Assembly: GCF_002854065.1 (NCBI RefSeq)
Contig: NZ_CP024147.1
Origin: Escherichia coli
GTDB lineage: Bacteria; Pseudomonadota; Gammaproteobacteria; Enterobacterales; Enterobacteriaceae
Length of the DNA stretch: 64,000 nucleotides
Reading direction: 5' to 3' (one strand)
Shown here: positions 36,001 through 39,000 of the stretch, piece after piece
How the letters are laid out: every line of letters begins with the position of its first letter
Numbering within the stretch: position 1 is the first letter of the stretch
Program-made: the position numbers

Positions 36001-39000
36001 GGCCGATCATATCGACAGCGTATTTGGTCCAGATGAAAGTAAGTTACACGGTTATCCTGGTCACCCGGAAATTGAACTGGCACTAATGCGCCTGTATGAA
36101 GTGACTGAAGAGCCGCGCTACCTGGCGCTGACGAACTATTTTGTCGAACAGCGTGGTGCGCAACCGCACTATTACGACCAGGAATATGAAAAGCGCGGGC
36201 AGACATCGCACTGGCACACCTACGGCCCGGCATGGATGGTGAAAGACAAAGCCTACAGCCAGGCACATTTGCCCCTTGCGCAACAGCAAACCGCCATCGG
36301 TCACGCGGTACGTTTTGTCTATCTGATGACCGGCGTCGCGCATCTCGCGCGTTTAAGTCACGATGACAGCAAGCGTCAGGACTGCCTGCGGCTGTGGAAC
36401 AATATGGCCCAGCGTCAGTTATATATTACCGGCGGCATTGGCTCGCAAAGCAGCGGCGAAGCGTTCACTAGCGATTACGATCTGCCGAATGACACGGTAT
36501 ACGCTGAAAGTTGCGCCTCCATCGGCCTGATGATGTTTGCCCGACGAATGCTGGAAATGGAAGGCGACAGTCAATATGCCGATGTGATGGAGCGCGCACT
36601 GTACAACACCGTGCTCGGCGGCATGGCGCTGGATGGCAAACATTTCTTCTATGTGAATCCGCTGGAAGTACATCCAAAATCGCTGAAATTCAACCATATC
36701 TACGATCACGTTAAACCGATCCGCCAGCGTTGGTTTGGCTGCGCTTGTTGTCCGCCAAATATCGCCCGCGTGCTGACCTCGATTGGTCATTATCTCTACA
36801 CGCCGCGTGAAGATGCGTTGTATATCAACATATACGCAGGAAACAGCATGGAAGTGCCGGTAGAAAATGGCACGCTGCGCCTGCGGGTTAGCGGGAACTA
36901 TCCGTGGCAGGAGCAGGTGACGATTGCGGTTGAATCGCCCCAGCCGGTACGTCATACGCTGGCTTTACGTCTGCCGGACTGGTGCACACAGCCGCAGATC
37001 ATATTGAATGGGGAAGAGGTCGAGCAGGATATTCGTAAAGGGTATTTGCACATTACCCGCGAATGGCAGGAGGGCGATACGCTGAATCTGACTTTGCCGA
37101 TGCCGGTACGCCGCGTTTACGGTAACCCGCTGGTGCGTCACGTCGCCGGAAAAGTGGCGATTCAGCGCGGCCCGCTGGTGTATTGCCTGGAACAGGCCGA
37201 CAACGGCGAGTCACTGCATAATCTGTGGCTGCCCACCGATGCGCCATTTACGACATTTGAAGGCAAGGGATTGTTTAGCCATAAGATCTTAATCCAGGCA
37301 CCGGGTTACCGGTATGAACAGAGCAATCCAGAGCAGCAACCGCTGTGGCATTACGACAGCGCGCCAGCCAAACGCCAGACGCAAACTCTGACCTTTATCC
37401 CATGGTTTAGCTGGGCCAACCGGGGTGAAGGCGAAATGCGGATCTGGGTGAATGAGGAAAAGCATTGCCATCCGTAGGTTGGATAAGGCACTCGCGCCGC
37501 ATCCAACGTAAGGAGCACATTGCCTGATGCGACGCTTAACACGTCTTATCAGGCATACAAGTCGGTGCGAGAGCGTAGGCCAGCCGCACCGACATCCACC
37601 GGTGAATTAAAAACGCCAGCTCACGCCGGTGACAAAGGTAAAACTCTCATTACGATCAATCATCGGGCTGTCGGTAATCTCTTCCGGCAGCTCGCTGTAT
37701 CCGGCGCTCGCCATCAATACGACGTGCTCTCCTATCGGGTATTTTGCCGTCAGGCTGACATAGGGCACCCAGGCATCCTGCGCGGAATAACTTGCCAGAC
37801 CGCTACGACGGGACTCACTCTCTGAAATGCCATAGTAATAGTCACTGAAATTCTCGTCATAATAGAGAACGCCCAGCGCAGGTGTCAGCGACAGACGACC
37901 TATCTGCATTTTGTGGAATACCGATAGCTCCCCCACCCAGCCGTTGCTGTTATCCAGAACGTCCGCAGCTGCAGAGGCTTTCACGGTTCCCCAACGCTCG
38001 TGGTGATACCAGGCAACCCCCGCCATAGCCGTACTATCACGCTTATCAAGCTGTTGCATGGCATAATCGTCATTATCGGCAGGGTCAAATTCCAGCGGCA
38101 TCCAGGATGCGGTCAGGCTAAGTTCATTTTTTTCACTTTGCGACAGAATAAAACCTAACGTGGTCTGACGAACATAAAAAGAATCACCTTCATAACTAAT
38201 CAGGGGAATTGCCTTTGTATTTTCATTATAACCGCGATAAGGCGATTCATTATAAGCCGCACCAGCACCAATGGATAATTCAGAAGCAGTTGCGCTTGCC
38301 ATAAAAGGCAACGCAAATAACGCCACAATATTGCGGTTAATTAACATGTCCGGTATTCCATTTTAAAATAAGATAAAAAAGAGTCGGCATAGTAATGCTT
38401 ACAATTTCTCCGGTGCAAGATTCATATTTATATAGTAATATATAAAATTATATATAATTGGGCTGTTGCGATGACAAAATTACAACTTAAGTACCGGGAG
38501 TTAAAAATTATCTCGGTAATCGCTGCCAGTGAAAATATCAGCCATGCTGCGACTGTACTTGGCATCGCACAGGCCAACGTCAGCAAATACCTTGCTGATT
38601 TTGAATCAAAAGTGGGTTTAAAAGTCTTTGACCGAACCACCCGGCAGCTGATGCTCACACCTTTTGGTACCGCGCTGTTACCGTACATCAACGACATGCT
38701 GGACAGAAACGAGCAGCTTAATAATTTTATTGCAGATTATAAGCATGAGAAACGTGGTCGGGTCACCATCTACGCCCCAACCGGCATAATTACCTATTTA
38801 TCCAAACATGTAATCGATAAAATTAAAGATATCGGTGATATAACCTTATCGCTAAAAACCTGCAATCTTGAGCGTAATGCCTTTTATGAAGGCGTCGAAT
38901 TTCCTGATGATTGTGATGTTTTAATCAGCTACGCTCCACCAAAAGATGAATCGCTGGTTGCCAGTTTTATTACACAATATGCCGTAACCGCTTATGCCAG

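What the first reader, a model, noticed from the sequence alone, without database searches (positions are those of the whole stretch)
38348..38470. Divergent yiaT / yiaU promoter with an AT-rich dyad
The LysR-family gene yiaU is divergent from the outer-membrane MipA-like gene yiaT, and the 123-bp spacer contains a near-palindromic TTTATATAGTAATATATAAA element. This is the typical layout of a LysR regulator controlling its divergent neighbour; the target and ligand are inference.
Basis: inference. Interest (0 to 1): 0.3.

Follow-up and report, generated by a model that had tools for sequence, protein, structure and literature searches.

The report
Conserved YiaU operator at yiaT promoter
The AT-rich palindrome between the E. 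coli genes yiaT and yiaU is real and is the core of a strongly conserved control region, very probably the binding site of the LysR-type regulator YiaU; that YiaU controls yiaT was already published in 2022, so the finding is sound but ordinary.

Summary
yiaT (37607-38347, minus) and yiaU (38471-39445, plus) are divergent across a 123-bp spacer, and TTTATATA-GTAA-TATATAAA lies at 38427-38446. The palindrome alone is not significant in this 93% A+T stretch (shuffle P 0.07-0.18). Conservation is what makes it meaningful: across 19 Escherichia, Citrobacter, Pseudocitrobacter and Kluyvera genomes, 45 of 123 spacer columns are invariant, against 1 of 86 four-fold degenerate sites. The dyad arms form the longest invariant run, and the 4-bp centre varies in Kluyvera.

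The dyad is part of a larger module, read towards yiaT: TATATA-N7-ATATRT-N3-TATATAAATA-N6-TTGCA-N17/18-TAnnAT. A second copy in the same register lies upstream of yiaWV (40968-41013) on the other side of yiaU. A metagenome scan found the module only in front of yiaT or yiaW.

Published RNA-seq shows yiaT de-repressed in a yiaU knockout. A gSELEX paper (CsuR = YiaU) exists but I could not read it. ChIP-exo reported no peak at this spacer, and its YiaU-specific sites lack the motif.

Best reading: a LysR-type operator that controls yiaT and overlaps the yiaU promoter. It is not a symmetric T-N11-A box. The regulatory link is already known, so interest is low.

The parts
37607..38347 (-). yiaT coding sequence (246 aa, MipA/OmpV-family outer-membrane protein), the divergent target gene
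   Evidence: ORF; Pfam MipA E=4.9e-52; RefSeq annotation
38471..39445 (+). yiaU coding sequence (324 aa LysR-type regulator, also published as LpsR and CsuR)
   Evidence: ORF; Pfam HTH_1 + LysR_substrate; literature
38348..38470 (.). 123-bp divergent spacer; 45 of 123 columns invariant across 19 genomes of 4 genera
   Evidence: neutral baseline of 1 invariant among 86 four-fold sites
38427..38446 (.).
   Evidence: strongest dyad axis in the yiaT promoters at 8.5 of 10 pairs; arms conserved, centre changes to ACAC/GCAC in Kluyvera
38413..38458 (-). Composite operator-promoter module (alignment columns 13-58), read towards yiaT: TATATA-N7-ATATAT-N3-TATATAAATA-N6-TTGCAC
   Evidence: Ungapped register shared with the yiaW promoters; reciprocal PWM cross-validation
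38425..38434 (-). Block A, TATATAAATA (promoter-proximal); invariant in all 22 unique yiaT promoter sequences and near-invariant in the 23 unique yiaW sequences (last three positions at least 75%)
38438..38443 (-). Block B, ATATAT (ATATGT at yiaW); the ATAT core is invariant
38451..38456 (-). Block C, TATATA (distal). With block B it forms a second even-centred dyad with its axis near -65.5. It overlaps the candidate yiaU -10 region
   Evidence: (I6)
38413..38418 (-). -35-like TTGCAC for yiaT (only TTG matches the consensus); TTGCA is invariant in both promoter families
   Evidence: Inference: the consensus scan does not call it
38389..38394 (-). -10-like TACTAT for yiaT (TATTAT in Citrobacter, TATCAT in Kluyvera), 18 bp from TTGCAC; the invariant positions are TA..AT
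   Evidence: Inference, no TSS data. An RpoS-holoenzyme SELEX peak maps to about 38394
38357..38360 (-). Probable yiaT Shine-Dalgarno core (TGGA on the minus strand), invariant
   Evidence: inference from position
38421..38448 (+). Candidate yiaU promoter TTCATA-16-TAAAAT. The dyad fills its spacer and the start of its -10. An alternative -10, TATAAT, lies at 38453-38458
   Evidence: Shimada 2014 chose the same hexamers. The hexamers are not conserved in all Citrobacter
40968..41013 (-). Second copy of the composite operator, upstream of yiaW: GTATATAAAAAATAATATGTCGTTATATAAATAAGGAAATTGCAC
   Evidence: Best non-self PWM hit in the 64-kb window; conserved in Citrobacter and Pseudocitrobacter
40945..40950 (-). 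-10-like TAATAT for yiaWV, 17 bp from TTGCAC (TACTAT or TATTAT in Citrobacter)
   Evidence: inference
39442..40907 (-). yiaW (40584-40907, DUF3302 inner-membrane protein) and yiaV (39442-40578, HlyD-type periplasmic adaptor); predicted second local target operon

Best explanation
The dyad is the most symmetric part of a composite operator of about 45 bp (38413-38458) for the LysR-type regulator YiaU (LpsR/CsuR). The operator has three TATA-type blocks roughly one helical turn apart, at about -74 to -69, -61 to -56 and -52 to -43 relative to the yiaT start I predict. It abuts a weak yiaT promoter, TTGCAC-18-TACTAT. A YiaU tetramer bound there would work as LysR regulators usually do. Without inducer it sits on the DNA and damps yiaT, which explains the de-repression seen in the knockout. 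When induced or over-produced it shifts towards the -35 and activates, which explains the 'activator' annotation. Because the same blocks lie over the candidate -35, spacer and -10 of yiaU on the other strand, it would also repress its own gene. A second copy in the same register in front of yiaWV makes yiaT-yiaU-yiaV-yiaW one locally regulated envelope module. Shown here: the sequence, its conservation, the second copy and its specificity. Taken from the literature: the effect of YiaU on yiaT. Inferred: direct binding to these blocks, the promoter positions, autoregulation and the sliding-dimer mechanism.
For: Conservation: 45 of 123 spacer columns are invariant in 19 genomes of 4 genera, against 1 of 86 four-fold degenerate sites. 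The longest invariant run is 38425-38434, followed by 38439-43, which are the dyad arms; the centre varies in Kluyvera. The divergent yiaT-yiaU pairing and spacer length are kept even where yiaV is absent. Second copy: the E. coli yiaT and yiaW promoters are identical at 32 of 44 ungapped positions, a level reached by 0 of 20000 shuffles. The register is shared by 22 + 23 unique sequences. A PWM trained on one promoter family ranks the other first in 64 kb (36.9 and 35.3, against 6.7 and 6.6 for the next unrelated hits). At yiaW in Citrobacter and Pseudocitrobacter the operator directly follows the aldB terminator with no divergent gene, so the distal blocks are not simply a divergent promoter. 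Specificity: in a metagenome scan for 19 shared bases, all 50 matches with good flanks lie upstream of yiaT (23) or yiaW (25) or at a contig end (2), and 36 of them have yiaU on the same contig; 82 other matches are background. Spacer, yiaU and the yiaW promoter occur in near-equal numbers of E. coli genomes: 3742, 3775 and 3807 of 5426. Literature: yiaT rises by log2 2.8 in a yiaU knockout (PMC9068703); a YiaU/CsuR gSELEX study is cited by RegulonDB; the RefSeq product name is 'activator'; LTTR reviews describe uninduced repression, induced activation and autorepression from one bidirectional operator (PMC11495319). The YiaU recognition helix is invariant wherever the operator core is invariant.
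Against: No experiment I could read shows YiaU on this DNA. ChIP-exo of YiaU-8myc in M9 glucose lists 8 sites and none is here. The three sites that look YiaU-specific (waaP, adeP/yieH, yjiT) have no resemblance to the motif. The palindrome alone is within chance for this composition. There is no symmetric T-N11-A box: both dyad axes are even-centred, and the only invariant T-N11-A pair has asymmetric flanks. At yiaW the dyad symmetry is weak (5.6 of 10 pairs) although the blocks are conserved, so symmetry may not be the selected property. The proposed yiaT promoter scores only 7 of 12 against consensus and is not called by the scan. I could not reach any TSS data. Both regions are listed as H-NS and RNAP-holoenzyme SELEX sites, so other proteins certainly bind there.
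Confidence: 0.68

Rival explanations
1. The conserved AT-rich blocks are mainly an H-NS nucleation/silencing site, possibly also an UP-like element for RNA polymerase alpha, shared by two horizontally acquired envelope promoters. YiaU would then act elsewhere or only indirectly on yiaT.
For: Both the yiaT/yiaU spacer and the yiaWV upstream region are flagged 'HNS' and give RNAP-holoenzyme SELEX peaks. TATATAAATA matches 7 of 10 positions of the H-NS high-affinity motif TCGATAAATT (motif from my own knowledge). The module is accessory, present in about 70% of E. coli genomes. yiaT is barely expressed (base mean 26). ChIP-exo saw no YiaU here.
Against: H-NS and UP elements tolerate much sequence variation. 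Base-for-base invariance over about 20 bp, in a fixed register with TTGCA, across four genera and two promoters is not what they need. The module occurs only beside yiaU. This rival is compatible with the best explanation, with YiaU acting as an H-NS antagonist, rather than excluding it.
Confidence: 0.15
2. The dyad is just the core promoter of yiaU: AT-rich -35, spacer and -10-like hexamers. Its palindromic look is a by-product of TATA repeats, and no regulator binds it.
For: The scan and Shimada 2014 both place TTCATA-16-TAAAAT across the dyad. A perfect TATAAT lies at 38453-38458. Several overlapping palindromes exist, and the dyad is not significant by shuffling.
Against: Those hexamers are not conserved among Citrobacter or Kluyvera, whereas the sequence between them is. 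The same blocks are conserved upstream of yiaW where no divergent gene exists. Promoter spacers are not normally invariant.
Confidence: 0.08
3. The operator belongs to a different DNA-binding protein, for example an AT-preferring regulator such as Lrp, Fis, IHF or LeuO, that co-regulates yiaT and yiaWV. The yiaU-knockout effect on yiaT would then be indirect.
For: Direct YiaU binding is unproven here, and the ChIP-exo sites lack the motif. The yiaU knockout had 674 differentially expressed genes, so indirect effects are common.
Against: Both copies flank yiaU and travel with it in every genus and in the metagenome contigs. No copy was found elsewhere in the 64-kb window, the 19-kb waa region or the scan background. 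A local regulator is the simplest owner. I found no match to the IHF consensus by inspection.
Confidence: 0.07
4. The palindrome is a chance feature of low-complexity AT-rich intergenic DNA and has no function.
For: Shuffle P values are 0.07 and 0.18.
Against: Invariance across four genera against a 1.2% neutral baseline, plus a second conserved copy.
Confidence: 0.02

Closest known systems
YiaU (LpsR, Rodionova et al. 2022; CsuR, Shimada et al. 2022) regulation of yiaT in E. coli K-12
   Same: Same gene pair and the same proposed regulatory link. yiaT is de-repressed in the yiaU knockout, and the authors note that the divergent pair is conserved. RegulonDB lists YiaU as an experimentally supported TF.
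   Different: The text I could read gives no binding sequence for the spacer. The published ChIP-exo list has no peak there. The three-block operator, its second copy at yiaWV and the absence of the motif at waaP, adeP and yjiT are my own in-silico results. They may already be in Shimada 2022, which I could not read.
Classical LysR-type bidirectional operators (BenM-benA, CbnR-cbnA, OccR, DntR; sliding-dimer model with RS, AS1 and AS2)
   Same: A regulator divergent from its target. Conserved sites spread over about 30 bp ending at the target -35. A dyad axis near -65 and another a turn closer in. Overlap with the regulator's own promoter. Both repression and activation reported.
   Different: No odd-centred T-N11-A dyad. 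The half-sites are self-complementary TATA repeats, so direct and inverted repeats cannot be told apart. Site boundaries, TSS and ligand are unknown.
AaeR-aaeXAB (LysR regulator next to a small membrane protein, a membrane-fusion protein and an efflux pump)
   Same: A LysR gene adjacent to an operon for a small inner-membrane protein plus a HlyD/EmrA-type adaptor. YiaV hits AaeA, EmrA and MdtN models below their cut-offs, and YiaU hits AaeR weakly.
   Different: There is no AaeB-type pump gene. An outer-membrane MipA-family gene sits on the other side instead. yiaWV is convergent with yiaU, not divergent from it.
H-NS-silenced AT-rich promoters relieved by LysR-type antagonists (the LeuO paradigm)
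   Same: An accessory, AT-rich, poorly expressed locus flagged as an H-NS target, with a LysR regulator beside it.
   Different: No evidence here that YiaU displaces H-NS. The conservation is much more sequence-specific than H-NS binding requires.

Membership tests
LysR-type transcriptional regulator (the protein) | N-terminal winged HTH (Pfam HTH_1) plus C-terminal LysR substrate-binding domain | tested here: met
   PF00126 at residues 9-66 (48.8 bits, cut-off 26.6) and PF03466 at residues 95-302 (58.1 bits, cut-off 28). No NCBIfam equivalog cut-off was reached, so it is not an orthologue of YafC, GcvA or AaeR.
LysR-type divergent operator | Regulator gene transcribed divergently from a target gene across a short shared control region | tested here: met
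   123-bp spacer. The arrangement and spacer length (118-124 bp) are kept in Escherichia, Citrobacter, Pseudocitrobacter and Kluyvera.
LysR-type divergent operator | Target gene expression changes when the regulator is removed | not testable with these tools
   From the literature only: yiaT log2FC +2.8, P 9e-7, in a yiaU knockout (PMC9068703).
LysR-type divergent operator | High-affinity regulatory site with a T-N11-A motif flanked by dyad symmetry | tested here: not met
   All odd-centred axes score low (at most 4.5 of 10 pairs). The two strong axes (columns 34.5 and 23.5) are even-centred, giving T-N10-A and T-N12-A type pairs. The only invariant T-N11-A pair (columns 31 and 43) has asymmetric flanks. 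In DNA made only of A and T, occurrences of T-N11-A carry little information.
LysR-type divergent operator | Regulatory site centred near -65 and activation sites reaching the -35 of the target promoter | tested here: inconclusive
   Relative to my predicted yiaT start (about 38382), the dyad axes fall at -65.5 and -54.5 and block A ends 6 bp before TTGCAC. The promoter is predicted only, scores 7 of 12 against consensus, is not called by the scan and has no TSS data behind it.
LysR-type divergent operator | Operator overlaps the regulator's own promoter (negative autoregulation) | tested here: inconclusive
   The dyad covers the spacer and -10 of TTCATA-16-TAAAAT, or the -35 and spacer of an alternative ending in TATAAT at 38453-58. 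The yiaU TSS and any autoregulation are not established.
LysR-type divergent operator | Direct, sequence-specific binding of the regulator to the site | not testable with these tools
   ChIP-exo lists no peak here. The gSELEX and gel-shift paper (doi 10.1099/mic.0.001166) is not held. Indirect support comes from the motif's strict co-occurrence with yiaU.
LysR-type divergent operator | Small-molecule co-inducer that switches the regulator | not tested
   The LTTR review lists the ligand as unknown. Nothing in the sequence identifies one.
Structured RNA or attenuator in the spacer | Match to a known RNA family, or folding better than shuffled sequence | tested here: not met
   Rfam returned only a spurious snoRNA hit at E 0.8. 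Folding z-scores were +0.40 and -0.11.

The most novel reading that the evidence does not exclude
YiaU recognises a non-canonical LysR operator: three TATA-type blocks with even-centred dyads and no T-N11-A box. This operator exists in exactly two copies, at yiaT and at yiaWV. The true direct regulon would then be a four-gene accessory envelope module: a MipA-family outer-membrane protein, a HlyD-type periplasmic adaptor and a DUF3302 inner-membrane protein, which might assemble into one trans-envelope complex. The published ChIP-exo 'LpsR' targets (waa, adeP, yjiT, gltB), which lack the motif, would be indirect effects or artefacts.
Probability: 0.3. Interest if true: 0.4.

Novelty: already known. 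Interest (0 to 1): 0.2.

Why it matters
It matters modestly. YiaU is one of the last E. coli K-12 LysR regulators to be characterised. Two 2022 papers gave it different names (LpsR and CsuR), different target lists and opposite signs of regulation. A sequence-level operator shared by yiaT and yiaWV but absent from the ChIP-exo sites offers a simple way to decide which published targets are direct. It also points to yiaT, yiaV and yiaW as one co-regulated envelope unit of unknown function, present in about 70% of E. coli genomes. Nothing here changes how LysR regulators are understood.

Tried and rejected
1. Palindrome significance by dinucleotide shuffling: not significant, so I relied on conservation instead.

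2. Matching the dyad to published YiaU ChIP-exo sites. The coordinates had to be shifted by +1977 bp from genome version 2 to version 3. The offset is from my own knowledge and was checked against the gene names. No similarity was found. Five of the eight ChIP-exo sites recur for many unrelated TFs in the same dataset and look like background.

3. Experimental TSS: two supplement searches found nothing.

4. The primary CsuR paper could not be retrieved by DOI or PubMed id.

5. RNA element or hairpin: rejected.

6. Symmetric T-N11-A box: rejected.

7. Sigma-54 reading of TTGCA as a -12 element: rejected by inspection, because there is no GG at the -24 spacing.

8. The direct repeat ATAGTAAT at 38389 and 38432 (D1): the first copy varies (ATAATAAT, ATGATAAT) and coincides with the -10-like hexamer, so it is probably coincidental.

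9. Shimada 2014's yiaT promoter guess, TTGTAA-19-TTTTAT: its -35 is not conserved in Kluyvera.

10. The Serratia oryzae yiaU-like locus L025: no yiaT and no operator (best PWM score 6.0); probably not a functional equivalent.

11. Marine metagenome hits L094 and L040 with intermediate scores: chance, with no relevant genes nearby.

12. H42, a genome lacking the spacer: a single IS1-mediated deletion, not informative.

13. A 'yiaT' literature search mostly returned the Young Internet Addiction Test.
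Full report
**What is there.** The window is E. 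coli chromosome, 100% identical to NZ_CM128593. A 246-aa ORF at 37607-38347 on the minus strand and a 324-aa ORF at 38471-39445 on the plus strand are separated by exactly 123 bp, 38348-38470. RefSeq names them yiaT (MipA/OmpV family) and yiaU (LysR family). Pfam agrees: MipA for YiaT, and HTH_1 plus LysR_substrate for YiaU. The 20-mer TTTATATAGTAATATATAAA lies at 38427-38446. It has two perfect 8-bp arms around a 4-nt centre, and 18 of its 20 positions are self-complementary.

**Is the palindrome more than chance?** Taken alone, no. Positions 38420-38460 are 93% A+T and hold at least six further overlapping palindromes. A perfect inverted repeat with arms of at least 8 bp appears in 7% of dinucleotide-preserving shuffles of the spacer and in 18% of shuffles of the AT core. 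Conservation therefore had to be the test.

**Conservation.**
- One genome-collection scan with YiaU returned 27 loci from Escherichia, Citrobacter, Pseudocitrobacter, Kluyvera and one Serratia.
- yiaT is divergent from yiaU in every locus except two: the Serratia locus, which has no yiaT, and L018, which is cut by a contig end.
- The spacer is 118-124 bp in all but two loci. L019 has a 248-bp spacer because of an insertion on the yiaT side. L005 shows 153 bp, but its yiaT appears frameshifted, so that measurement is unreliable.
- The pair is kept in Kluyvera even though yiaV is not next to yiaU there.
- In a 19-genome alignment, 45 of 123 spacer columns are invariant. In the same genomes only 1 of 86 four-fold degenerate codon positions of yiaU and yiaT is invariant. 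E. coli and Citrobacter share only 35-49% of those positions.
- The longest invariant run is 38425-38434 (TATTTATATA), followed by 38437 and 38439-38443 (TATAT). These are the two arms of the dyad.
- The 4-bp centre is GTAA in three genera and ACAC or GCAC in Kluyvera. Conserved arms with a free centre is the pattern expected of a protein-binding dyad.
- Other invariant islands are TGCAA (38414-38418), AT..TAATG (38389-38397), TATAT (38451-38455) and TCCA (38357-38360). The last is the probable yiaT ribosome-binding site on the other strand.

**The dyad is part of a larger module with a second copy.**
- A weight matrix built from the dyad block found its best non-self match in the 64-kb window at 40978-41001. 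That is about 85 bp upstream of yiaW, on the far side of yiaU.
- Read in the direction of the downstream gene, the yiaT and yiaW upstream regions align without a gap: TATATA-N7-ATAT(A/G)T-N3-TATATAAATA-N6-TTGCA-N17/18-TAnnAT.
- This holds in 22 unique yiaT promoter sequences and 23 unique yiaW promoter sequences.
- The two E. coli copies share 32 of 44 positions. None of 20000 shuffles, each allowed 21 offsets, reached that.
- A matrix trained only on yiaT promoters ranks the yiaW site first among non-self hits in the window (36.9; next unrelated hit 6.7). A matrix trained only on yiaW promoters ranks the yiaT site first (35.3; next 6.6).
- In Citrobacter and Pseudocitrobacter, aldB ends only 155-185 bp upstream of yiaW and the operator follows its terminator directly. 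At that copy there is no divergent gene, so the distal blocks cannot be explained as a divergent promoter.

**Specificity.**
- I scanned the metagenome collection for the 19 bases common to both copies. I scored each of the 132 matches only on the columns that the pattern left free.
- The result is bimodal. Fifty matches score high. The gene downstream is yiaT in 23 and yiaW in 25, and 2 are cut by a contig end. Thirty-six have yiaU on the same contig.
- Eighty-two matches score low. Two of those are indel variants of the real sites, and the rest have no yia homologue.
- Two intermediate marine hits proved to be chance.
- The 19-kb waa region of MG1655 has no site; its best score is -0.4.
- Within E. 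coli, the spacer, yiaU and the yiaW promoter occur in 3742, 3775 and 3807 of 5426 complete genomes. That fits one accessory module gained or lost as a unit.

**Geometry.**
- The invariant TTGCA and TA..AT, 18 bp apart at yiaT and 17-18 bp at yiaW, read as a weak sigma-70 promoter: TTGCAC-18-TACTAT in E. coli, TATTAT in Citrobacter and TATCAT in Kluyvera.
- The invariant positions of the second hexamer are the ones that matter most in a -10 element. This is still inference. TTGCAC matches the -35 consensus only at TTG, the pair scores 7 of 12, and the consensus scan does not call it.
- I could not reach any TSS data. A coarse RpoS-holoenzyme SELEX peak converts to about window 38394.
- On this reading the yiaT start is near 38382.
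- Both axes are even-centred. No odd-centred axis scores well, and the only invariant T-N11-A pair has asymmetric flanks. The classical LysR box is therefore not met.
- At yiaW the dyad symmetry is weak (5.6 of 10 pairs) although the blocks are conserved. The blocks, rather than the palindrome, appear to be what selection keeps.
- On the plus strand the dyad fills the spacer and the start of the -10 of the only called yiaU promoter, TTCATA-16-TAAAAT. It also overlaps the -35 and spacer of an alternative that ends in a perfect TATAAT at 38453-38458. A protein bound there should hinder yiaU transcription.

**What is already published.**
- Rodionova et al. 2022 (PMC9068703) deleted yiaU and found yiaT up by log2 2.8. 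They noted that the divergent pair is conserved and renamed the protein LpsR.
- I found no binding sequence for the spacer in their text or in the supplements that are held.
- The ChIP-exo data they draw on (Gao et al. 2021, PMC8464067) list eight YiaU sites, none at yiaT/yiaU.
- Five of the eight (coaE, yhcC/gltB, cspA, treR/mgtA, deoA) recur for many unrelated regulators in the same table and look like background. The other three (waaP, which is intragenic, adeP/yieH and yjiT) have no similarity to the operator.
- A second group, Shimada et al. 2022 (Microbiology 168:001166), studied the same protein by genomic SELEX and renamed it CsuR. The paper is not held.
[quoted passage not shown] RegulonDB counts it as establishing the first regulatory interactions of YiaU. 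One paper cites it for yiaV. MG1655 RefSeq now reads 'DNA-binding transcriptional activator YiaU'.
- My recollection of its abstract, which I have not verified, is that it reports five high-affinity targets, all cell-surface genes, activated by YiaU.
- Shimada 2014 and 2017 list RNAP-holoenzyme SELEX peaks, with an 'HNS' flag, at both the yiaT/yiaU spacer and the yiaWV upstream region.

**Mechanism.** The best-supported reading is an ordinary LysR-type bidirectional operator with an unusual sequence.
- YiaU, probably as a tetramer, occupies three TATA-type blocks from about -74 to -43 and touches the weak -35 of yiaT.
- Uninduced, it damps yiaT, hence the de-repression in the knockout. Induced or over-produced, it activates, hence the 'activator' label.
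- This dual behaviour, and autorepression through overlap with the regulator's own promoter, are standard for the family (PMC11495319).
- The same arrangement at yiaWV would make yiaT, yiaV and yiaW a co-regulated envelope set. Relief of H-NS silencing may be part of the effect.
- Shown here: the sequence, the conservation, the second copy and the specificity. From the literature: the yiaT response. Inferred: binding, promoter positions, autoregulation and the switch.

**Rivals.**
- H-NS or UP-element function alone would not need base-for-base invariance in a fixed register.
- A plain yiaU core promoter does not explain the yiaW copy.
- A different regulator is possible but less economical, because both copies flank yiaU and travel with it.
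- Chance is excluded by conservation.
- A structured RNA is excluded by Rfam and by folding.

**Verdict.** The regulatory link is already known, and the architecture is a textbook kind. The operator definition and the yiaWV copy are a modest addition that may already be in the paper I could not read. Interest is low.

Noticed in passing
window 35483-37477 (+): An intact 664-aa glycoside hydrolase family 127 gene lies just downstream of yiaT; its best NCBIfam hit is aceric acid hydrolase, below the cut-off. At the same place K-12 MG1655 has only the pseudogene remnants ysaC and ysaD.
   Followed up: partly
window 41090-41233 (+): A 47-aa hydrophobic ORF (MELLAKFMIKNRK...) lies divergent from yiaW. 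Many RefSeq E. coli genomes annotate it as a hypothetical protein, but MG1655 does not. It has no Pfam match. There is no room for it in Citrobacter or Pseudocitrobacter, where aldB ends 155-185 bp from yiaW.
   Followed up: partly
window 39442-39445: yiaU (+) and yiaV (-) are convergent and their 3' ends overlap by 4 bp, so transcription of yiaWV runs head-on into yiaU.
   Followed up: no
window about 41330-41440: The long (544 bp) aldB-yiaW intergenic region in E. coli contains GC-rich inverted repeats that look like REP/BIME elements. That is my reading of the sequence and was not tested with a tool.
   Followed up: no
Literature: PMC8464067 Dataset S4 (MG1655 v2 coordinates 113297, 3352128, 3717903, 4465567, 4617577): Five of the eight YiaU ChIP-exo sites recur at nearly the same coordinates for many unrelated transcription factors in the same dataset (YebK, YhjC, YdiP, YidL, YedW, YqhC and others). 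This suggests hyper-ChIPable background rather than specific binding.
   Followed up: partly
L035 (NZ_CP062863.1) 2540-3510: In one pig-derived E. coli strain, an IS1 insertion with a deletion has removed yiaL through yiaT and nearly the whole operator. This leaves yiaU with only about 10 bp of its native upstream sequence.
   Followed up: partly
L019 (Pseudocitrobacter vendiensis) 2253-2500: The yiaT-yiaU spacer is 248 bp because of an insertion of about 125 bp between the yiaT ribosome-binding site and the -10-like element. The operator blocks are intact. The insert was not identified.
   Followed up: no
L005 (Citrobacter amalonaticus AUH_CA_2023_1) 1614-2347 and 4617-4939: Both yiaT and yiaW appear frameshifted (three tblastn segments each) in the same genome, while the operators are intact. 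This could be decay of the module or indel errors in a long-read assembly.
   Followed up: no
window 40860-41100 compared with E. coli genomes: The yiaW upstream region of this strain is an uncommon allele. Only 2 of 3807 genomes are at least 99% identical, and most are 90-95% identical. By contrast, the yiaT-yiaU spacer is at least 99% identical in 3302 of 3742 genomes. The operator blocks are conserved in both alleles.
   Followed up: partly
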